From Christensenella sp. UBA7571 (lineage in GTDB: Bacteria; Bacillota; Clostridia; Christensenellales; CAG-917): a DNA stretch of 64,000 bases. Below the pieces are notes generated by a model. It worked only from the letters and a program-made list of their open reading frames with translations. It had not been told where the DNA came from and did no database searches. Positions 2,998-59,260 of this stretch are shown here, in pieces; position 1 is the stretch's first letter; the number at the start of each line of letters is the position of its first letter. The DNA is taken from positions 9,694-73,693 of the forward strand of contig DLLD01000015.1 of NCBI GenBank assembly GCA_002476605.1. Direction: 5' to 3'. The translations under genes were made by a program, and so were the position numbers.

Positions 2998-3786
2998 TTA
3001 TTTGAGATAACCGTACTTTTCGCGGTTTACGATTGCGCATATTCCGCAAAGTAGCACGTATCCCGCGCCGAACACGAGCATCGTAAACAAATAACTCGTA
3101 CGATATCCGTGTATGAAGTCTTGCATAAAATCTATCTTTGCGATGCCTATACCGTTTGCCCCCACGAGTGCCGTGATGAATATCGCAAGCACGCATATAA
3201 GATTGACGATTGCACCGCTCGTATACTTGATCGGTTTGATTGCGCCGAATATCGCAAAAACGGATTTTATCATATTGATAAGAACGGATAAAATGCCGAT
3301 TGTGATAACTATATCGGGAATCATACCAAGCCAAATCTTGCCTACCGTCTCACCTTTCCAGCCGAGTTCGGCAGTGCGTTTGAACGCGTCGATAAAATGT
3401 CCGACGACGTTGAATCTGTCCGCAACGAGCAAGAAAGGCAACTTTGCGTCCGCCTTTACCGCCGACAAAATATAGGGCAAAAGCACCGCGACCGAGGCAA
3501 GAAACGCTATTATACCCGCCGTCATATTCTTTGCTCGCTTGCCTCTCTTCCACTTCTTGTTGGCGTCTTCCTTTTTGGGTTGGAAGTCGTTGGCGGTGGA
3601 TTGAGCGCGGACGGAATCGCCCTCTTGCGGGCGTTCTTCCGTCACGAGATGCGGCTCTATAACGAACTCTTGCATCACGGTGGGCATCACGTGATATCCC
3701 GAATTGGGCGCGGGGGTAGGCGCAAGCCTTATGCCCGCGTCGTCAACGCCTTTTATTCTGGGTTTGTTGTTTTTTGTATCTGCCAT
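2998..3786 (-). CDS. hypothetical membrane protein with the same architecture as its neighbour
   Basis: The 262-aa ORF has a Pro-rich N-terminus, a basic KKWKRGKRAK segment and then at least 4 predicted TM helices. Confidence 0.6.
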   Translation of the reverse strand: MADTKNNKPRIKGVDDAGIRLAPTPAPNSGYHVMPTVMQEFVIEPHLVTEERPQEGDSVRAQSTANDFQPKKEDANKKWKRGKRAKNMTAGIIAFLASVAVLLPYILSAVKADAKLPFLLVADRFNVVGHFIDAFKRTAELGWKGETVGKIWLGMIPDIVITIGILSVLINMIKSVFAIFGAIKPIKYTSGAIVNLICVLAIFITALVGANGIGIAKIDFMQDFIHGYRTSYLFTMLVFGAGYVLLCGICAIVNREKYGYLK

Positions 3787-21566: not shown

Positions 21567-21643
21567 ATAAGTTCTCCGAGCGAAGGCGCGATATTATGCG
21601 CGCCCGCGCTATTATGATTAGTATGAATAGATAGATAAATTAT

Positions 21644-21672
21644 ATTATACATATAAAGCGCGCCTTTTTCAA
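21644..21672 (-). promoter_or_regulatory. sigma-A-type promoter upstream of the GLUG-motif gene
   Basis: On the minus strand the sequence reads TTGAAA (21672-21667), a 17-nt spacer, then TATAAT (21649-21644). Confidence 0.5.
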
Positions 21673-21728
21673 CAAGTTTTTGTCGCCGAAGCGTTTTTAA
21701 CTCGTATTTAAGGCGCGTATTATAGTTT

Positions 21729-22388
21729 TTATGCAAATTTTTCAAAGTACGCTTTTGCGATTTGGTCTGCGGTTGCGCTTTGTTCAAGCGAGAGTAACGT
21801 TGCAATTTCGCTCTTCACGGTTGCATCGTTTATAGAGTAAGAGACCACCGCTTCTTCCCCGCTTTGCATACCGTCGCGAATTGCCGAAACGAGTGCGGTT
21901 GCAAGTTGCAACGCGGTGTTTCTATCTTCACCAATCACACAAACGCGCACTTTATCGTCGTCTTTGACTTGATAAACATCTTTTATTGCGTATTTGATGT
22001 TTTCACCTTGCTTGCCTACGTTGCTGAAAGGCGTATCTTCGCCGTCGCGCTCCAACGTGCAAACGGTCACGCTTTCGTCGCTTATAACGAAGCCGTAAAT
22101 TATAGTCTTGCCTTCGCTTTCGACGCTCAATCTCACGTAACTTTGAGCGGGCGCGGGCTTATTGTCTTGCATAAGCGCAAGTGCGGAAAACGCAAGCGCA
22201 CACACCAAAAGAAGTGCAAGCGCAATCCACAAAAGGCGCACCGCCGTGGTTTTATCAAAGGCGCGCAACGGCTCTTCACCCGTCAAAAGTCTGTTTATCG
22301 GGGCTTGCTGTGCGCGGGAAAAGACGTCGGGCACGGACTTTTCGTCGTGTTCGGTTTTGAGATTGTTTTTGATATCCCTAATCTTCAT
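21729..22388 (-). CDS. putative anti-sigma factor (single-pass membrane protein)
   Basis: It overlaps the upstream ECF sigma gene by 11 nt. It has a short cytosolic N-terminus, one TM helix (LLWIALALLLVCALAFSALAL) and an extracytoplasmic domain. Confidence 0.55.
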   Translation of the reverse strand: MKIRDIKNNLKTEHDEKSVPDVFSRAQQAPINRLLTGEEPLRAFDKTTAVRLLWIALALLLVCALAFSALALMQDNKPAPAQSYVRLSVESEGKTIIYGFVISDESVTVCTLERDGEDTPFSNVGKQGENIKYAIKDVYQVKDDDKVRVCVIGEDRNTALQLATALVSAIRDGMQSGEEAVVSYSINDATVKSEIATLLSLEQSATADQIAKAYFEKFA

Positions 22389-26861: not shown

Positions 26862-28757
26862 TTACTCTTCCGTATCGTTTTGGGGCTCGTCGATGAGCAT
26901 CGGTTTTCTCTTCTTTACGACTATCACGACGACGGTGATTATTGCCGCAAGCGCAATCGTAAGCCCTACGATGAGCATTGACAAGTCGAGAGGACGGAGT
27001 ATAAACGGCTTGACGACGGCGGTGAATTTGTATTGGAAATCGACTATCGAATTATCCCCGAAGCGTGCCGTGATATAATACGTGCCCGCTTTCTTTGGCG
27101 TGAAATCAAAGGTTGCGCCCGATGCTACGTACTCACCGTTGACGTACCACTTGGTCTCGATATCGGGGTCGAGATATTTTACGCCCGTAAGCGCAAAGGT
27201 CGTCGTTTCGGTAGTATAAAGCGTTGCGCTCGACGGCGCGATCGATACGTCTTCACCCGCTCTGCTTGCAAGAGTGACGCGCACTTCACCAACGTAATAT
27301 TTGCCGTATTCTACGTGCACTTGTTGATACGTTTCGAGATCGTAATAAGGCAATTTTGCTCTGACGATATAATCTCCGCCGCCCTCTGCGACGAAAGTTA
27401 CGCTCTTGCCTTTGCCGAGAGAATACTCGTCAATAACGGTAGTATCGTCCGCATTTTTTATCTTTTGCGCAACCCACTCGACGCTATTCTCGACCAAAGG
27501 ATCTACCGCACCGAGAGGAGCAAGTTGCACGTACAACTCGACGGGAGTTATTGCGTCCGCGCGCATATAAACCATATCGGTGTAATCACCCTCACCAAGC
27601 GTGCCGTTGTGAACGAGCGTCATTTCGGTAGGAGTCAAATATCCGAGGTTTACGTCGTCGAGATTTGCGCTTGCAACCGTCAAAAGATTGAGCGCGGGGA
27701 ACGTGTATGCGGGGCTAACGGAAGTCGCGCTTACGCTCACCGTCTTGGGGTAATTCATTTTGCAAACGAGTCTTGCAATCTTTCTTGCGTCGACGTCTCT
27801 TGCTTGCACTTTGCAGCGGAGTTTCAAAAGCGCGCTTGCAAAACTCACGCTACCCGCCGAAAGACTAGTGCCCGTTACGTTGTCATATTTGCTCTCGGCA
27901 TTGAAATCGTTGTAGCCTTTTGAGGTATAGATATCTTGTCCCGGGGCGCAAATGTCCGTCGTATCGTGATAGAAGGACGAAGCGTACAAATTGCCGTCGC
28001 TTCCTTGGTTGGCAACTGATATTACGTTTGGTAAAGAAGCGGGATAGAACGCTTGATTTCTGCTGTCCGAACTCGATTGTCTGTTGCCCGCCGCTGCCAC
28101 GATTACGGAAGTTTCGCTTGCCTTGGACACCGCCACTTCAAAGGCGTTGCGCAAGGACGATCCATTTTGACTATAATTCTTTTGCGGAAAACCGAGCGAC
28201 ATATTGATAACGTCCGCTTTTGCGTTGCTTTGCGCCCACTCCACCGCCTTGGTGAGGCTTGCAATGGTGAAGTTGCTGTCACCCTTATCCGCTTTTATAG
28301 GGTAAATCTTGATATAATCTTCAAGTCCGAACTCTTTTATAAGCATTGCGATAACGCCCGCAATTTCAGAACCGTGCTTGGTGGTATTGTCGGAGATATC
28401 CACGCTTCCGTCGGAGTTTACACCGTTCGTGTTGTATCCGAGCACTTCGCCTTTATCGTTTTTGGCAAGAACGTCGTCAAAAAGCTCGTGCGCGGTATCG
28501 ATACCCGTATCTATCACCGCAATGACGATAGGCTCGTTTATACGGCTCAAATCCCACGTATCAACGACGGCTTTTGCGCCTTGAACGTCCAAAAAACCGT
28601 CCTTGTAATAGGACAAATTTGCCGTGTCCTTTCCACCCCAACTCGTCGCATACGCAACGGACGGAGCGGGAATAAGCACGGCAAAAAGCACGCTTGTAAG
28701 TAGCACAAGCACCGCTATTATCGCAATTATTCTCTTATTTGCAAGAGTAAGTTTCAT
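26862..28757 (-). CDS. S8 family (subtilisin-like) serine peptidase with a C-terminal membrane anchor
   Basis: The catalytic triad motifs VIDTGID, HGSEIAGV and GTSLSAG are present. It has an N-terminal signal/TM segment and a C-terminal TM helix followed by KKRK. Confidence 0.88.
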   Translation of the reverse strand: MKLTLANKRIIAIIAVLVLLTSVLFAVLIPAPSVAYATSWGGKDTANLSYYKDGFLDVQGAKAVVDTWDLSRINEPIVIAVIDTGIDTAHELFDDVLAKNDKGEVLGYNTNGVNSDGSVDISDNTTKHGSEIAGVIAMLIKEFGLEDYIKIYPIKADKGDSNFTIASLTKAVEWAQSNAKADVINMSLGFPQKNYSQNGSSLRNAFEVAVSKASETSVIVAAAGNRQSSSDSRNQAFYPASLPNVISVANQGSDGNLYASSFYHDTTDICAPGQDIYTSKGYNDFNAESKYDNVTGTSLSAGSVSFASALLKLRCKVQARDVDARKIARLVCKMNYPKTVSVSATSVSPAYTFPALNLLTVASANLDDVNLGYLTPTEMTLVHNGTLGEGDYTDMVYMRADAITPVELYVQLAPLGAVDPLVENSVEWVAQKIKNADDTTVIDEYSLGKGKSVTFVAEGGGDYIVRAKLPYYDLETYQQVHVEYGKYYVGEVRVTLASRAGEDVSIAPSSATLYTTETTTFALTGVKYLDPDIETKWYVNGEYVASGATFDFTPKKAGTYYITARFGDNSIVDFQYKFTAVVKPFILRPLDLSMLIVGLTIALAAIITVVVIVVKKRKPMLIDEPQNDTEE

Positions 28758-37110: not shown

Positions 37111-37172
37111 AAATTGAGAATTTTTGAAAAGTTGTGATAAATAGATGGTTTTATTGACGCGACTGTAAGTCG

Positions 37173-37283
37173 CACCAAATAAACGCATAATGCGAAAGCG
37201 CCACGATTTGGCAACCCTAACCGTACAAATGCGTACGTGAGTTGTCAAATCGTGGCGCTGACAAAATTAGGCGTTATTTGGTG
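37173..37283 (-). repeat. Family B extended-hairpin module (variant with ATGCGAAAGC arm)
   Basis: P1 is CACCAAATAAACGC/GCGTTATTTGGTG. The outer stem is 37198-37210/37246-37258. The core is CAAC-CCTAAC-[CGTAC..GTACG]-TGA-GTTG. Strand was assigned from the U-rich tract that follows the hairpin on the minus strand. Confidence 0.7.
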
Positions 37284-37300
37284 TGACTTGGAAAGCCGTG

Positions 37301-37405
37301 CCAAATAGATGAAGAACAAGGAAGAGCCGTCCGTACGACAACCCAATTTACAAGTCGTAAATGAGTTGCGGGCGGACGGCTCTGACGCAGTTATTCGTTA
37401 TTTGG
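37301..37405 (-). repeat. Family B extended-hairpin module (variant with AGATGAAGAACAAGGAA arm), overlapping the stop codon of the M28 gene
   Basis: The outer stem is GAGCCGTCCG/CGGACGGCTC (37324-33/37373-82). The core is CAAC-CCAA-[TTTAC..GTAAA]-TGA-GTTG. P1 is CCAAATA/TATTTGG. On the minus strand the hairpin is followed by UUCCUUGUUCUUCAUCU. Confidence 0.7.
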
Positions 37406-38753
37406 TGCGGCTTTCCTCAATTTTGGAGATAACGCGGACGACTACGTCTAGTCCAAGCCCTACCGTGTCGGGGCTGAAACGCTCGGGAACGTCACGGAAG
37501 GTGTGATAGTAGTCGGACATAACGGGGTTTTGGGCGGCAAAGGTGATGGATTTGACACCGGCGCGTTGGAAAGGCGTTGAGTCGCACCCACCGACGGGGT
37601 TGGCAATGTTGCCGGGCTTTTTGATACCCGCTTCTTTCATTGCGTCGAAGAACATCTTTTCCAAGTCCTTGTCAAAGTGCGGGCAAAGCCAACTGTCACC
37701 GTGGATAACCTCGAAATGCTCTGCGTCGGCAATGGAGTCTATGTTGATGTGATAGGCGTTGTCGAGCATACCGTCGTCTTTATGCTTGCGAGTAAATGCG
37801 ATAGATCCGCGAAGACCGGACTCCTCCGCACCGACGTTGCAGTCGATAATACGGCAGTTTTTGGGCATTTTGTCGGGGTTTTCCTTGTAATACTTAACCA
37901 CTTGATACGCTATGGAAACGCCCGTTGCGTTGTCCATTGCACCTGGGGAGGCAATCTCTTCCGTCTTCTCGTTGTACATCGTGAGCAAGAATGAGCAAGC
38001 GATTGCAAGCGGTGAGCCGTAAAGCGCGATTTGGGAAAGTATTCCGTATGCTTCAAGCACGTTGAGGAGCGTGCGTTGGTCGAGGTTGTCACCGTATTGA
38101 TACATCATAATGAGCACGGTGAGCGCAATGCTGACCATAGTCACGAGCGCAACCGCGATTGCACCGAGACCGAGTCTCAACACGACGCCGACGAAGCCGA
38201 GCTTGTATTGCGAGGCACTGAGTTTGAGCGTCCAACTCGTATCGGTGTGTCCCGTAAGATAGATAGTGTAATCGTATTTGCCGTCTTCGGGAAGAAGCTC
38301 CGCATAAGTGTTTTGCGACACTTTGTGCTTGAAGCACCAGTCAAAGCAAGTGTGATATTTGAACACGCTGACGAAAAGCCAAATCCACACGCAAATCATA
38401 AACATCGTGCAGACGAAGTGTACCACCACTCCCGCGAAAGGCGAACCGAAACGCATTCTGGTGAATTGATACAAATCACCGCCGATGGACGACACCAAGA
38501 TTGCGATAAGCGTAAGAACGCAACCGATAATGCCCGCCCAACCCGCGTACGGAAGTCCGCCAATGGACGAGTGCGGTGCAAACACGAAGTTTTCGGTGAC
38601 GGGATTGAGACCTATCTCTTTGAGCTTGCCCGACATATAGTCGTGGTATTTTTTCTCGTTTTGAGAACCGGGAAGGCGCGGACCGATTTCGTTGGCGGCG
38701 TATTCCACCATCTTGTACGCATCGTCGCCGTACTTTTTGAGTTCTTCTCTCAT
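37398..38753 (-). CDS. M28 family metallopeptidase with an inserted multi-TM region (start trimmed)
   Basis: It has the M28 motifs GAMDNATGVS and NVGAEESGLRGS. The ATG at 38751-38753 is preceded by a GAGGA RBS. Confidence 0.75.
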   Translation of the reverse strand: MREELKKYGDDAYKMVEYAANEIGPRLPGSQNEKKYHDYMSGKLKEIGLNPVTENFVFAPHSSIGGLPYAGWAGIIGCVLTLIAILVSSIGGDLYQFTRMRFGSPFAGVVVHFVCTMFMICVWIWLFVSVFKYHTCFDWCFKHKVSQNTYAELLPEDGKYDYTIYLTGHTDTSWTLKLSASQYKLGFVGVVLRLGLGAIAVALVTMVSIALTVLIMMYQYGDNLDQRTLLNVLEAYGILSQIALYGSPLAIACSFLLTMYNEKTEEIASPGAMDNATGVSIAYQVVKYYKENPDKMPKNCRIIDCNVGAEESGLRGSIAFTRKHKDDGMLDNAYHINIDSIADAEHFEVIHGDSWLCPHFDKDLEKMFFDAMKEAGIKKPGNIANPVGGCDSTPFQRAGVKSITFAAQNPVMSDYYHTFRDVPERFSPDTVGLGLDVVVRVISKIEESRTK

Positions 38754-38824
38754 AATTTCCTCACTATCTTTTATTGTTATAAAATGCGAGCGCAAAATTA
38801 TGCGCTCGCACACTAAAACCTATT

Positions 38825-47673: not shown

Positions 47674-47916
47674 GTGACTGTAAATGATGCCGTGGCAAAA
47701 AGAATAATTGCTCTGTTGTCCGAAAAGAAGATGACGCAGTATCGTTTGGAGCAACTTTCGGGCATACAACACGGACATATGCAATGGATATTGAGTGGGA
47801 AAAGCAAAACCGTGACTTTATCCACCGTAATGATGATTGCACACGGTTTTGGAATGACCGTATTAGAATTTTTGGACGACGACCTCTTCAAATACGAGAA
47901 TTTAGAAGTAGAATAA
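47674..47916 (+). CDS. XRE-family helix-turn-helix transcriptional regulator
   Basis: The 80-aa protein has a GTG start with a GAGGTG RBS. The HTH pattern is IIALLSEKKMTQYRLEQLSGIQHGHMQWILSGK. Confidence 0.75.
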   Translation: MTVNDAVAKRIIALLSEKKMTQYRLEQLSGIQHGHMQWILSGKSKTVTLSTVMMIAHGFGMTVLEFLDDDLFKYENLEVE

Positions 47917-47920
47917 CATA

Positions 47921-47952
47921 GAAACCGAGAACTGTGTTCTCGGTCTTTTTTT
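47921..47952 (+). terminator. rho-independent terminator of the XRE gene
   Basis: The sequence is ACCGAGAAC-TGT-GTTCTCGGT-CTTTTTTT. Confidence 0.8.
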
Positions 47953-47972
47953 CGGGTGTGGGTGTTCCACCC
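47951..47972 (+). repeat. H0 GC hairpin module
   Basis: The sequence TTCGGGTGTGGGTGTTCCACCC directly follows the terminator U-run. It is the same module seen at 10837, 56775, 56918 and 59298. Confidence 0.7.
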
Positions 47973-48007
47973 TCACCGTCATTCCCTCTATAAAAAATGC
48001 GATAAAC

Positions 48008-48353
48008 AGATGAAGAACAAGAAAGGACTGTTCGCACGGCAACCCTAATTCCACTTGTTAAAAACGCGATAAATCGATGCACAACGCGAAAGCACCCCGA
48101 GGAGCGCAAACCCAACGTACACGACGTACGTGATTTGCGAAACTCGGGGTGCTGTAAGGAACGCAGTGACGGAATAGCGATTGTTACGTTATGCGTCAAT
48201 CGCGTCCAAAGTTAGGCGCGATTTAGCGCGTTTGTAAAACTTCGATATTTAGATGAAGAGCAAGGAAAAGCCCCTCGAATGACAACCCTAATTTACTAAT
48301 CGTAAATGAGTTGGCAGTCGAGGGGCTTTGACAAAGCTATTCGCTAAATAGCG
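48008..48353 (-). repeat. Array of family B modules: one truncated, two complete, plus a small GCGC hairpin
   Basis: Complete modules have outer stems 48092-48101/48143-52 (GCACCCCGAG/CTCGGGGTGC; core GCAAA-CCCAA-[CGTAC..GTACG]-TGA-TTTGC) and 48267-78/48318-29 (AAAGCCCCTCGA/TCGAGGGGCTTT; core CAAC-CCTAA-[TTTAC..GTAAA]-TGA-GTTG). The truncated copy is at 48008-48060. Confidence 0.7.
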
Positions 48354-48359
48354 AAGTTT

Positions 48360-48491
48360 TTACTTGCAGTCTTTGCAATCGGAAACGCCCTTTTTAGCGC
48401 GAGATTTCGTCGTTTTCTCTACTTTCGGTTCACCGCAATGGCAACCTTCGGATTTCTTGGTTTGTTTGACAGTTGAATTTGTTTTTGCCAT
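48360..48491 (-). CDS. small basic Cys-containing protein (43 aa), absent from the ORF track
   Basis: The translation is MAKTNSTVKQTKKSEGCHCGEPKVEKTTKSRAKKGVSDCKDCK. A strong RBS (AAGGAG) lies 7 nt before the ATG at 48489-48491, and a family B hairpin sits immediately downstream. Confidence 0.5.
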   Translation of the reverse strand: MAKTNSTVKQTKKSEGCHCGEPKVEKTTKSRAKKGVSDCKDCK

Positions 48492-48612
48492 AAATATCTC
48501 CTTTTATTTTGAGGCGTTGCGCCTCGGGTTATCCGTTTGAGCGGATTTGATTATAGTATGGCAAAAAGCGTGTGTTTATATACCTTGCGCAATCAAAAAA
48601 ATGTGGTATAAT

Positions 48613-57650: not shown

Positions 57651-58997
57651 ATGTCATATATCAGTGAAGTCATTGAACAGACCGAATTGAAAAACCCGGG
57701 ACAACCCCAATTTATGCAAACGGTGAAAGAGGTTCTTACGTCTCTCGCTCCCGCCGTCGAGCAACACGAAGAAACGATGAGAAAGAACGTTATCCTCGAA
57801 CGCCTCGTAGAACCCGATAGACAAATTATGTTCCGCGTGCCTTGGATGGACGACAACGGTGTATATCACGTCAATCGTGGTTTCCGCGTGCAATTCAACA
57901 ACGCAATCGGACCGTACAAGGGCGGTTTGCGCTTCCAAAAAGACGTCAACCTCGACGCAATGAAGTTCCTCGGTTTTGAACAAACCTTCAAAAACTCCCT
58001 CACTTCCCTTCCTATGGGCGGTGCAAAGGGCGGCGCGGACTTCGATCCCACCGGCAAGAGCGACGCTGAAATTATGCGTTTCTGCCAATCCTTTATGAAC
58101 GAACTTTATCGCCACATCGGACCGAGTATGGACGTCCCCGCGGGTGATATGGGCGTCGGCGGAAGAGAAATCGGTTATCTCTTCGGACAATACAAAAAAA
58201 TCGTCGGTTCTTACGAAAACGGCGTTCTCACCGGCAAAGGTTTGAGTTACGGCGGATCTCTCATCCGTCCCGAAGCAACCGGTTACGGCGCAACTTACTT
58301 CCTCGACGAAGTGCTCAAACACGAAGGCGAACAAATCAAAGGCAAGACCTTCTGCCTCAGCGGTTTCGGCAACGTCGCTTGGGGCGCAGCCGCAAAAATC
58401 ACCGAACTCGGCGGTAAGGTCGTCACCCTCTCCGGTCCCGACGGATATATCTACGATCCGGACGGCGTAAGCGGTGAAAAAATCGATTATATGCTCGAAA
58501 TGCGTGCATCTAACCGCAACAAAGTCAAAGATTACGCAGACAAATACGGTTGCGAATTCGTCGCGGGCAAGAAGCCTTGGGGCAACGTCAAAGCAGACGT
58601 TTATATGCCTTGCGCAAGACAAAACGAAGTGCTTCTCGAAGACGCGGAAGCCATGGTCAAACTCGGAGTCCCCGTACTCAACGAAGTTTCCAATATGCCC
58701 ACCACCAACGAGGCAATCGCATACTTGCAATCTCACGGAGTTCTCGTCACTCCGTCCAAAGCAGTCAACGCGGGCGGCGTAGCGACCAGCGGTCTCGAAA
58801 TGTCTCAAAACAGCGAACGTCTCTCTTGGACGGCAGAAGAAGTCGATGCAAAACTCAAACAAATTATGAAAGGCATCCACAACCAAATCTGCGACGCGCT
58901 CAACGCATACGGTCTCGACTACAACCTCGTCAAGGGTGCAAACCTTGCCGGTTTCAAGAAGGTATACGAAGCAATGTTGGCACAAGGCATAAACTGA
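57651..58997 (+). CDS. gdhA: NADP-specific glutamate dehydrogenase
   Basis: It has the Glu/Leu/Phe/Val dehydrogenase active-site region PMGGAKGGADFDP and a GFGNVAWG dinucleotide fold. It is 448 aa long. Confidence 0.93.
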   Translation: MSYISEVIEQTELKNPGQPQFMQTVKEVLTSLAPAVEQHEETMRKNVILERLVEPDRQIMFRVPWMDDNGVYHVNRGFRVQFNNAIGPYKGGLRFQKDVNLDAMKFLGFEQTFKNSLTSLPMGGAKGGADFDPTGKSDAEIMRFCQSFMNELYRHIGPSMDVPAGDMGVGGREIGYLFGQYKKIVGSYENGVLTGKGLSYGGSLIRPEATGYGATYFLDEVLKHEGEQIKGKTFCLSGFGNVAWGAAAKITELGGKVVTLSGPDGYIYDPDGVSGEKIDYMLEMRASNRNKVKDYADKYGCEFVAGKKPWGNVKADVYMPCARQNEVLLEDAEAMVKLGVPVLNEVSNMPTTNEAIAYLQSHGVLVTPSKAVNAGGVATSGLEMSQNSERLSWTAEEVDAKLKQIMKGIHNQICDALNAYGLDYNLVKGANLAGFKKVYEAMLAQGIN

Positions 58998-59016
58998 AAA
59001 TCGACGCGATTTTACG

Positions 59017-59050
59017 AAAGACACGCAATTTTGCGTGTCTTTCTTTTATT
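59017..59050 (+). terminator. rho-independent terminator of gdhA
   Basis: The sequence is GACACGCA-ATTT-TGCGTGTC-TTTCTTTTATT. Confidence 0.8.
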
Positions 59051-59189
59051 CGCTAGATTTTCAGTTTTCTAATCGCGCAACCGCTGTGTTGCTCGCAGTC
59101 CATACACGGACAAAAACTCCCGCCACAATTCCGCCACATCGCTTGCTTGATACTCGCTTCGCTCGTTGTTTTATGCGGATAGTAATTTT

Positions 59190-59240
59190 GGGTTTGCACC
59201 TCACGGGGTGCTTTCTTGTTCTTCATCTATTTTACAGCCT
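59190..59240 (+). repeat. Partial family B module (3' half only), plus-strand orientation
   Basis: The sequence TTTTGGGTTTGCACCTCACGGGGTGCTTTCTTGTTCTTCATCTATTT aligns with the reverse complement of the 48.1-kb module (GTTGGGTTTGCGCTCCTCGGGGTGCTTTCGCGTTGTGCATC). The 5' half is missing. Confidence 0.55.
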
Positions 59241-59260
59241 TTTAGAATTGTGTTTTTATT

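What the first reader, a model, noticed from the sequence alone, without database searches (positions are those of the whole stretch)
48008..48353. Second family B locus: an array of modules directly downstream of an unannotated 43-aa gene, including covariation inside the conserved core
The locus holds one truncated copy (48008-48060) and two complete copies. In the 48092-48152 copy the otherwise constant middle helix changes from CAAC/GTTG to GCAAA/TTTGC, a C:G to A:U compensatory change. In the 48246-48350 copy P1 changes from AAATA/TATTT (37-kb locus) to ATTTA/TAAAT. As at 37 kb, all modules point the same way as the upstream minus-strand gene, and the proximal module is followed by UUUUCCUUGCUCUUCAUCU on that strand. 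Compensatory changes at three helix levels across loci are hard to explain without selection on folding.
Basis: seen in the sequence. Interest (0 to 1): 0.65.

Follow-up and report, generated by a model that had tools for sequence, protein, structure and literature searches.

The report
Repeated hairpin terminator modules at stop codons
The flagged array consists of copies of a roughly 125-base hairpin element, seen so far only in uncultured gut Clostridia, that sits exactly at the stop codons of many unrelated genes and most likely ends their transcripts; it is a real and unusually elaborate repeat family, but of a broadly familiar kind.

Summary
Window 47993-48363 holds one half copy and two full copies of a ~125-nt three-tier hairpin, directly after a conserved 43-aa gene.

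About 247 copies were found in 120 loci from gut Clostridia (Christensenella-like MAGs and human-gut metagenomes). No Rfam, plasmid or phage match was found.

Covariation is very strong: 37 of 43 pairs show double changes, and 92.8% of cells are paired against 68.7% in shuffles.

In 108 of 121 arrays a long open frame ends exactly at one fixed end of the element. The outer helix contains the stop codon and often the last codons.

Read in the gene's direction, the "conserved purine box" is a U-rich tract (CUUUCUUGUUCUUCAUC). It directly follows a GC-rich inner hairpin with median folding energy -31 kcal/mol. This is the layout of an intrinsic terminator.

The stems show no strand-specific G-U excess. 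The pairing may therefore be maintained at the DNA level, by template switching or gene conversion.

Best reading: a lineage-specific, recombining terminator module family, similar in role to REP or ERIC elements, with a stop-codon "clamp" helix of unknown purpose.

The parts
48360..48491 (-). 43-aa Lys/Cys-rich small gene. Its stop codon TAA lies at 48360-48362.
   Evidence: The ORF has an AAGGAG ribosome-binding site. Orthologues in L070, L203, L155, L211 and L194 each have a module at the stop codon. No Pfam family matches.
48550..48578 (-). Promoter-like site (TAAACA-17-TATAAT) upstream of the small gene.
   Evidence: Consensus scan, 10 of 12 matches. This is a consensus match only.
48234..48363 (-). 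Gene-proximal complete module (three-tier hairpin).
   Evidence: Covariance-model score 136 bits. Fold energy -54.5 kcal/mol, z about -10 on both strands.
48344..48363 (-). Proximal arm of outer helix P1. It contains the stop codon and the last base of the final Lys codon.
   Evidence: It is complementary to 48234-48252.
48330..48343 (-). Conserved 5' box (gene-sense CGAAUAGCUUUGUC; family consensus GCGAAUAACUGCGUCAG).
   Evidence: Alignments.
48267..48329 (-). Inner hairpin: P2 arms at 48310-48329 and 48267-48286, with the apex domain P3 at 48287-48309.
   Evidence: Inverted repeat I1, 90% complementary. Covariation. Family median folding energy -31 kcal/mol.
48252..48269 (-). U-rich tract directly 3' of the inner hairpin (UUUUCCUUGCUCUUCAUC). 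The predicted transcript 3' end is near 48260-48264.
   Evidence: Five to six U in the first 8 nt in 78 of 109 copies in the gene direction, against 1 U on the other strand.
48234..48252 (-). Distal arm of outer helix P1, ending in UUUUAC.
48058..48240 (-). Second complete module (box subtype B2), with an extra hairpin at 48155-48215 inserted between P2 and the box.
   Evidence: The same insert is found in 16 loci.
47993..48058 (-). Distal, truncated module, cut near the hairpin apex.
   Evidence: nhmmer match to model positions 5-60. Truncation at the apex is common in array members far from the gene.
37289..37417 (-). Proximal module of the 37-kb locus. Its P1 proximal arm is formed by the last six codons and the stop codon of the M28 peptidase gene (37398-38813).
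   Evidence: Orthologue comparison.
37163..37293 (-). Second module of the 37-kb locus (subtype B2).
59179..59242 (+). Relic half module about 190 nt downstream of gdhA. The gene-sense strand here is +.

Best explanation
**What it is**
- The modules are copies of a lineage-specific, repeated, palindromic terminator cassette.
- It occurs in uncultured gut Clostridia, in MAGs labelled Christensenella or Clostridiales.

**Order of parts, read in the direction of the upstream gene**
1. The stop codon.
2. The P1 proximal arm (which contains the stop codon).
3. The box GCGAAUAACUGCGUCAG.
4. A long GC-rich hairpin (P2 plus a conserved apex).
5. The U-rich tract CUUUCUUGUUCUUCAUC.
6. The P1 distal arm, ending in a GC clamp plus UUUU.

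**Proposed mechanism (inferred)**
- The inner hairpin and its U tract act as an intrinsic terminator for the upstream gene.
- The hairpin has weak A-U base pairs at its foot and an interrupted U tract. In Bacillus subtilis this is the type that NusA and NusG assist.
- The outer helix P1 closes only in RNA that has read through, or in RNA made from the opposite direction.
- In those cases the whole 55-bp hairpin is followed by the U run templated by the A-rich sequence after the stop codon (TAAAA).
- P1 is therefore proposed as a second-chance terminator, or as a terminator for transcription coming from the opposite direction, placed at the gene border.

**What is shown**
- The anatomy of the module.
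- Its position at stop codons and its orientation.
- The U-tail asymmetry between the two strands.
- The covariation.
- The shuffling of parts between loci: inner cores are shared between unrelated loci, and outer arms are locus-specific.
- Simple terminators at the same site in relatives.

**What is inferred**
- Termination itself.
- The role of P1.
- That complementarity is kept up largely at the DNA level, by template switching in quasi-palindromes and by gene conversion or deletion among copies.
- That gene-proximal copies are kept intact by selection, while distal duplicates decay.
For: **Position and orientation**
- In 108 of 121 arrays an open frame of at least 40 codons (median 320) ends at the same end of the element. 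At the mirror end the figure is 29 of 121, with a median of 24 codons.
- The distance from a called gene's end to the element end has median -2, with quartiles -3 and 0.

**Terminator layout**
- The inner hairpin has a median folding energy of -31 kcal/mol.
- It is followed by at least 5 U in 8 nt in 78 of 109 copies in the gene direction, against a median of 1 U on the other strand.

**End of transcription units**
- The next co-directional gene starts a median of 212 nt further on (first quartile 99).

**Orthologous sites (M28 peptidase gene)**
- One strain (L238) has only box + plain hairpin + UUUUUCAUUCUUU.
- A 78%-identical species (L240) has a plain hairpin terminator with remnants of the boxes.
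- Module number and order differ between strains (L242, L243 and the window).

**Upstream genes are diverse housekeeping genes**
- Examples are PGK, ribosomal protein L1, EF-P, lysyl-tRNA synthetase, glycogen phosphorylase, glutamate dehydrogenase and an M28 peptidase.

**Arrays**
- Arrays are direct in 149 of 150 cases.
- The gene-proximal copy is intact and the distal copies are decayed.

**Supporting literature**
- Terminators with weak terminal A-U pairs and interrupted U tracts are common and factor-assisted in B. subtilis (PMC8060035).
Against: - No transcript data exist, so termination is inferred from sequence only.
- The conserved boxes and apex (UAC/GUA invariant; an A.G mismatch and a U.G wobble that exist only on the strand antisense to the gene) are far more conserved than a terminator needs.
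- The whole element folds better on the antisense strand: 73 copies against 36, with a median difference of 2.7 kcal/mol.
- There is no excess of G-U pairs in the gene-sense stems.
- P1 is strongly maintained, and even co-varies with coding changes at the gene end (L237 against the window). Yet it would be absent from RNA that ends at the inner U tract.
- The outer U run is only 3-5 nt long.
- In convergent gene pairs the other gene usually has room for its own terminator, at a median of 135 nt away. A shared bidirectional role is therefore not required.
Confidence: 0.55

Rival explanations
1. The element is a selfish or neutral palindromic repeat, comparable to MITE or REP elements. It spreads and is homogenised purely at the DNA level. 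Its stems stay complementary through template switching and gene conversion. Its association with gene ends only reflects where insertions are tolerated or targeted.
For: - G-U and A-C counts in the stems are equal.
- Arms are perfectly complementary over 18-20 nt, including host coding bases.
- Inner cores at least 95% identical occur at unrelated loci whose P1 arms are only 47-66% identical. At orthologous sites, unrelated cores sit inside identical P1 arms.
- Half copies are cut at the apex, as expected from hairpin cleavage.
- Template switching can create and repair stems (PMC8794818).
Against: - 89% of arrays have one fixed orientation with the stop codon inside the outer arm. A DNA mechanism cannot sense reading frames.
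- No target-site duplication was found.
- No distant partner halves and no parent element were seen.
- The sites are retained across species that differ by 20% in protein sequence.
- Intact proximal copies next to decayed distal copies suggest purifying selection on the first copy.
Confidence: 0.2
2. The element is a structured 3'-UTR RNA with a dedicated partner, such as an RNA-binding protein or RNase III/Y. It would control mRNA stability or couple translation termination to the fate of the mRNA. The stop codon would be sequestered in P1 and released by the terminating ribosome.
For: - The stop codon is within P1 in about 80% of proximal copies.
- The P1 distal arm co-varies with coding changes at the gene end.
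- Internal loops and apex are strongly conserved.
- The long, nearly continuous duplex resembles an RNase III substrate (inference).
Against: - There is no G-U excess on the sense strand.
- The conserved wobble and purine mismatches lie on the antisense strand.
- P1 cannot form in RNA that ends at the inner U tract.
- No partner protein has been identified.
- No Rfam family matches.
Confidence: 0.15
3. The modules are independent small-RNA genes transcribed antisense to the gene end, on the GAUGAAG... strand.
For: - The invariant U.G wobble, the A.G mismatch and a GA/AG tandem in one apex subtype exist only on this strand.
- This strand folds more stably.
- A hairpin plus U run at its 3' end is flagged as terminator-like.
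Against: - No conserved promoter lies upstream. The sequence upstream is the variable P1 arm.
- The position is fixed relative to stop codons of unrelated genes, not relative to any promoter.
- The stems show no clear G-U excess.
Confidence: 0.05
4. The modules are site-specific recombination sites of integron attC type that mark gene cassettes.
For: - They are structure-conserved but sequence-variable hairpins directly after ORFs, in one orientation, sometimes in tandem.
Against: - There are no RYYYAAC / GTTRRRY core sites at the ends.
- CAAC/GTTG lies at the top of the inner helix, not at the base.
- The flanking genes are dispersed housekeeping genes in both orientations.
- The sites are conserved at orthologous genes.
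Confidence: 0.02

Closest known systems
Intrinsic (Rho-independent) terminators, including bidirectional and NusA/NusG-assisted ones
   Same: - A GC-rich hairpin is followed at once by a U-rich tract on the sense strand, downstream of a stop codon at the end of a transcription unit.
- An A run sits before the structure and a U run after it, as in bidirectional terminators.
- The stem has weak A-U base pairs at its foot and the U tract is interrupted, as in factor-assisted terminators (PMC8060035).
   Different: - Ordinary terminators are short, unrelated in sequence and free-standing.
- Here hundreds of copies share 16-nt boxes and an apex domain.
- The hairpin is about 60 nt long.
- The whole is enclosed by a second helix that contains the stop codon.
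- Copies form tandem arrays.
REP/BIME elements of Enterobacteria and Pseudomonas (from memory)
   Same: - Abundant extragenic palindromes in 3' regions of genes.
- Co-transcribed with the upstream gene.
- Known to stabilise upstream mRNA and, when close to stop codons, to affect translation.
- Stems are kept complementary among copies.
- Occur in clusters.
   Different: - REPs are 20-40 nt with a conserved 5' tetranucleotide.
- They cluster in alternating orientation.
- They are linked to RAYT transposases.
- The present modules are ~125 nt and three-tiered, arranged as direct repeats, with locus-specific outer arms and no sequence similarity to REPs.
Long palindromic intergenic repeats: ERIC/IRU, Neisseria Correia (NEMIS), pneumococcal RUP/BOX (from memory)
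   Same: - 100-150-nt imperfect palindromes in transcribed intergenic DNA.
- Some act as terminators or are cut by RNase III.
   Different: - Those families have fixed terminal inverted repeats, and Correia and RUP have target duplications.
- They occur in either orientation.
- They are not locked to stop codons.
Integron attC sites
   Same: - Hairpins conserved in structure rather than sequence.
- They lie directly after ORFs in one orientation.
   Different: - The modules have no R/L boxes.
- No integrase context was seen.
- The flanking genes are housekeeping genes rather than cassettes.
Hairpins created and maintained by replication template switching (PMC8794818)
   Same: - Multi-base 'compensatory' changes and perfect arm complementarity.
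- Extension of the palindrome into flanking sequence.
   Different: - That work describes a mutational process, not an element family.
- It does not explain the fixed orientation and the stop-codon position seen here.

Membership tests
Intrinsic terminator | A stable GC-rich hairpin immediately followed by a U-rich tract on the transcribed (sense) strand. | tested here: met
   The hairpin has a median folding energy of -31 kcal/mol. At least 5 U occur in 8 nt in 78 of 109 copies in the gene direction, against a median of 1 U on the other strand.
Intrinsic terminator | Located downstream of a stop codon, at the end of a transcription unit. | tested here: met
   In 108 of 121 arrays the element abuts the end of a long open frame. 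The next co-directional gene starts a median of 212 nt away.
Intrinsic terminator | RNA 3' ends and transcript release at the U tract. | not testable with these tools
   No transcriptome data were available.
REP/BIME | A short (20-40 nt) imperfect palindrome with a conserved 5' tetranucleotide. | tested here: not met
   The element is ~125 nt with three helix tiers, and its ends are locus-specific.
REP/BIME | Clusters in alternating orientation. | tested here: not met
   149 of 150 arrays are in direct orientation.
REP/BIME | An associated RAYT (Y1 transposase) gene flanked by the repeats. | not tested
   Whole genomes were not available, and none was noticed in the fetched loci.
MITE | Fixed terminal inverted repeats shared by all copies. 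| tested here: not met
   The outer arms differ between loci (mean identity 0.60) and include host coding bases.
MITE | Target-site duplication as direct repeats flanking the element. | tested here: not met
   No direct repeats were seen in the flanks listed.
MITE | A related autonomous element with the same ends. | tested here: inconclusive
   No distant partner halves were found within the fetched loci. Whole genomes were not scanned.
Integron attC | R''/R' core sites (RYYYAAC ... GTTRRRY) at the base of the hairpin, in cassette arrays next to an integrase. | tested here: not met
   The ends read TAAAAC...GTTTTA or are host sequence. CAAC/GTTG lies at the top of P2. The neighbouring genes are housekeeping genes.
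Any Rfam 15 RNA family | A covariance-model match at the gathering score. | tested here: not met
   The window gave 0 matches at gathering score, and only chance-level matches at E up to 10 over 47800-48600.

The most novel reading that the evidence does not exclude
The outer helix is functional and defines a new device: a 'stop-codon clamp'. It would pair the last codons and the stop codon with the segment just beyond the terminator's U tract. Ribosome occupancy at the stop codon would then decide whether the outer hairpin can close. This would couple translation termination to back-up transcription termination, to RNase processing, or to protection against antisense transcription. Alternatively, the family is a new kind of self-propagating terminator cassette. 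In that case its inner core moves between gene ends, and its outer arm is rebuilt from the host gene's 3' end by templated copying.
Probability: 0.2. Interest if true: 0.75.

Novelty: new variant of a known kind. Interest (0 to 1): 0.55.

Why it matters
**If the reading is right**
- A clade of abundant, mostly uncultured human-gut Clostridia ends a sizeable share of its transcription units with one homologous, recombining cassette rather than with unrelated hairpins. A rough estimate is 30-45 arrays per Mb.

**Practical uses**
- The family gives a sequence signature for operon ends in these genomes.
- It provides a set of natural terminator variants.
- It helps to reveal small unannotated genes, such as the 43-aa gene here.
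- It marks hotspots of recombination that complicate assembly and strain comparison.

**A methodological caution**
- Covariation is overwhelming in these stems, yet they show no RNA-strand signature.
- Covariation alone can therefore come from DNA-level palindrome maintenance and does not prove RNA-level selection.

**An open mechanistic question**
- The helix that contains the stop codon is unexplained and can be tested directly.

Tried and rejected
**Database and collection searches**
- Rfam at gathering score on the whole window, and at E up to 10 on 47800-48600, gave nothing relevant.
- Plasmid (PLSDB) and phage (INPHARED) blastn searches gave no match.
- An IMG/VR pattern scan gave 8 hits, none confirmed by the covariance model.
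- Looking up protein clusters to name the organism returned no names.
- Literature searches for a described repeat of this kind in Christensenella or Clostridia, or for stop-codon-adjacent MITEs, returned nothing specific.

**Readings considered and rejected**
- A small ORF starting at the ATG of the GATGAAG box: there is no ribosome-binding site, the frame is not conserved, and stops occur early (read from the sequence).
- K-turn readings of the internal loops: only one apex subtype shows a GA/AG tandem, and the rest do not fit.
- attC, REP and MITE membership: defining features are not met (see the membership table).
- Half copies as the ends of a larger mobile element: no complementary partner arms were found within the loci.
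- Other long inverted repeats in the window (3125-3270, 21637-21739, 27758-27843) were read and are unrelated.

**Strand tests that gave no clear answer**
- G-U against A-C counts did not single out one RNA strand.
- Folding energy of the two strands did not do so either.

**Test that could not be completed**
- Orientation relative to the replication strand, as opposed to the adjacent gene, could not be separated. Loci with two arrays are almost always co-oriented.

Full report
**1. What is in the sequence**

Between the HTH gene terminator (47922-47946) and a minus-strand 43-aa ORF (48360-48491) lie three head-to-tail copies of one element:
- a 5' half copy at 47993-48058;
- a full copy at 48058-48240, with an extra hairpin at 48155-48215;
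- a full copy at 48234-48363.

Related copies in the window are a tandem pair at 37163-37417 and a relic half copy at 59179-59242.

Each full copy is a long, interrupted hairpin with these parts:
- an outer helix, P1;
- two conserved, partly paired boxes;
- a GC-rich helix, P2;
- a small conserved internal loop;
- an apex hairpin, P3, with invariant UAC/GUA.

Single copies fold at -43 to -69 kcal/mol, with z-scores of -6 to -11. One point needs correcting. The U-rich string lies inside the proximal module, directly after P2, not after the module.

**2. The family**

- Rfam has nothing like it.
- A pattern scan of one genome per species brought in 119 loci, mostly chance matches. True copies were present in 16 of these loci. 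They come from MAGs labelled Christensenella sp., uncultured Clostridiales or Clostridia, or Bacillota.
- A stricter pattern in metagenomes returned 117 loci. Where the sample was named in the records, it was human gut, and nearly all loci were confirmed.
- With an HMM I collected 247 copies in 120 loci, of which 168 are full length.
- No copies were found in IMG/VR, PLSDB plasmids or GenBank phages.
- The density of additional arrays in flanking sequence is about 29 per Mb. The window has 3 arrays in 64 kb.

**3. Covariation**

- On 26 diverse copies, 37 of 43 predicted pairs have double changes.
- 92.8% of cells are paired, against 68.7% in shuffles and 32-40% when partners are slid.
- There are 272 double-change cells against 88.5 in shuffles (0 of 500 shuffles reach this).
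- All tiers co-vary, including the boxes: the two subtypes GAUGAAGAAC/GUUAUUCG and CGCAUAAU/AUUAGGCG co-vary with each other.
- In 109 distinct copies there are 3936 Watson-Crick cells, 243 G-U cells on the GAUGAAG strand, 96 A-C cells (which would be G-U on the other strand) and 194 others.
- Of the 243 G-U cells, 106 are one invariant U.G and 23 lie at one apex pair. In the variable stems the two classes are therefore about equal, ~114 against ~96.

A helix used as RNA on one strand would normally tolerate G-U far better than A-C. This result is therefore more typical of a palindrome maintained as DNA, or used on both strands.

**4. Position and orientation**

- Arrays have 1 to 4 members: 73 with one, 60 with two, 14 with three and 3 with four. 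All but one are in direct orientation.
- In 108 of 121 arrays an open frame of at least 40 codons (median 320) ends at one particular end of the element. The same test at the mirror end gives 29 of 121, with a median of 24 codons.
- With called genes, the distance from gene end to element end has median -2 and quartiles -3 and 0.
- Read in the gene's direction the element begins ...TAA AAC NGCGCUAUUUAG CGAAUAAC....
- The outer helix starts 0-4 nt upstream of the stop codon in about half of the proximal copies. It reaches 8-17 nt into the coding sequence in others.
- The upstream genes are unrelated housekeeping genes: phosphoglycerate kinase, ribosomal protein L1, EF-P, lysyl-tRNA synthetase, glycogen phosphorylase, glutamate dehydrogenase, an M28 peptidase, and others judged by eye.
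- The 43-aa ORF is a real gene. Five other loci encode MAK(S/T)ETKQTK..CHC.EPK..KTTK.RAK...DCK(N/D)CK, each with a module at the stop codon.

**5. The functional clue**

In the gene's direction, the "conserved purine box" is a U-rich tract, CUUUCUUGUUCUUCAUC. It directly follows the P2/P3 hairpin.
- The hairpin has a median folding energy of -31 kcal/mol.
- The first 8 nt after it hold at least 5 U in 78 of 109 copies.
- On the other strand the median is 1 U.

This is the layout of an intrinsic terminator, and it explains the orientation rule. The next co-directional gene starts a median of 212 nt further on (first quartile 99), as expected at the ends of transcription units. The stem foot has A-U pairs (AAAG/CUUU) and the U tract is interrupted. 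These features mark NusA/NusG-assisted terminators in B. subtilis (PMC8060035).

**6. Orthologous sites (M28 peptidase gene)**

The M28 peptidase gene (37398-38813) keeps its C-terminus ...KIEESRTK in relatives down to 78% identity.
- Its last six codons are the P1 proximal arm.
- In L237 the gene end reads caagagcgcactaaataa (…QERTK). The distal arm has changed to match it (…ATTTATTGCGCTCTTG).
- L238 encodes the identical protein. There it has only the box, a plain 12-bp hairpin and UUUUUCAUUCUUU.
- L240 (78% identity) has a plain hairpin terminator with box remnants.
- L242, L243 and the window differ in the number and order of modules.

The site is therefore old. It behaves like a terminator locus, and the elaborate module and a simple terminator are interchangeable states.

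**7. Dynamics**

- Inner cores (P2 plus apex) at least 95% identical occur at unrelated loci whose P1 arms are only 47-66% identical.
- In 37 of 52 orthologous pairs the cores are less than 70% identical, although the P1 arms can be identical. The pair L148 and L171 shows this, and their distal flanks are unrelated as well.
- In arrays the gene-proximal copy is intact. Distal copies lack their gene-side arm or are cut near the apex.
- The distal arms of older array members still match the gene-end arm: median score 10-11, against 5 for arms from other loci and 16 for proximal copies.
- No partner halves that would mark a larger mobile element were found.
- No target duplications were seen.

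I read this as duplication, deletion and gene conversion among copies, plus palindrome breakage at the apex. Selection would keep the first copy functional. Template switching in quasi-palindromes can produce multi-base "compensatory" changes and extend a palindrome into its flank (PMC8794818). That would account for three observations without RNA-level selection: the perfect 18-20-nt arms that include coding bases, the tracking of coding changes, and the lack of a G-U signature.

**8. What remains unexplained**

- A transcript ended at the inner U tract lacks the distal P1 arm. The strong maintenance of P1 therefore needs another reason. Candidates are a back-up terminator for read-through RNA (GC clamp plus UUUU), a terminator for antisense-direction transcription placed exactly at the gene border, an RNase III site, or purely DNA-level palindrome growth.
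- The boxes and apex are more conserved than a terminator needs.
- The invariant U.G wobble and A.G mismatch exist only on the strand antisense to the gene.
- The whole element folds 2.7 kcal/mol better on that strand (73 copies against 36). P2 plus apex alone does not show this.
- These points keep open a protein partner or a two-strand function.

**9. Verdict**

The element is a 3'-end element of the upstream gene with conserved folding. However, compensatory changes alone do not prove RNA-level selection here.

The best explanation (confidence 0.55) is a lineage-specific, recombining, palindromic terminator cassette with a stop-codon-containing outer helix. Rivals are:
- a non-functional DNA-level repeat (0.2);
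- a 3'-UTR RNA with a dedicated partner (0.15);
- an antisense small RNA (0.05);
- an attC-like recombination site (0.02).

It is a new variant of a known kind: intrinsic terminators, and REP- or ERIC-like intergenic palindromes.

Noticed in passing
L240:2910-2988; also L242 and L243 downstream of the family-B modules: A match to the Rfam Gut-1 RNA motif (RF01706; 58.6 bits against a gathering score of 50) lies just after the M28 peptidase gene's terminator (gene end 2820). It consists of arrays of short hairpins containing GTGATATTG. The window has no match at gathering score.
   Followed up: partly
window 48155-48215; L123, L128, L133, L148, L169, L172, L224: The extra hairpin of the middle module (GTAAGGAACGCAGTGACGGAATAGCGATTGTTACG...GCGTCAATCGCGTCC) recurs in 16 loci. 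In 9 of them it sits inside family-B modules. In 7 it is part of a different, larger conserved element (..GTGGCATAATGAGTGAACG..TATGCGAGTGCCGTAAGGAGCG..). Six of those seven loci were scanned against Rfam (L172 was not) and gave no match to this element.
   Followed up: partly
window 58991-59067 (+): The gdhA terminator has the same three-tier plan in miniature. The outer helix AACUGAAAAUC/GAUUUUCAGUU contains the stop codon UGA. The inner hairpin GACACGC/GCGUGUC is followed by UUUCUUUUAUUCGC. Fold energy is -38.7 kcal/mol, z = -8.8.
   Followed up: partly
window 48360-48491 (-): This 43-aa Lys- and Cys-rich protein (CHC...CxxC) is conserved in five other loci and has no Pfam family. It has its own promoter-like site at 48578-48550 and an AAGGAG ribosome-binding site.
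   Followed up: partly
L238:2824-2885: In a strain encoding the identical M28 peptidase protein, the module is replaced by a short derivative: box ACAAATAACTGCGGCA + 12-bp hairpin + UUUUUCAUUCUUU. The apex domain and the distal P1 arm are absent.
   Followed up: yes
window 48340-48355 (+), and the family consensus GCGCTATTTAGCG: The P1 proximal arm and the start of the 5' box can form a small alternative local hairpin (UUCGCUAAAUAGCGAA followed by GUUUUUAC). The scan flags it as terminator-like on the strand antisense to the gene.
   Followed up: no
L148:3300-3520 against L171:330-550: At an orthologous gene end with identical P1 arms, both the inner core and the whole flank beyond the distal arm are unrelated between the two assemblies. 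This suggests that modules are breakpoints of rearrangement or of array collapse.
   Followed up: partly
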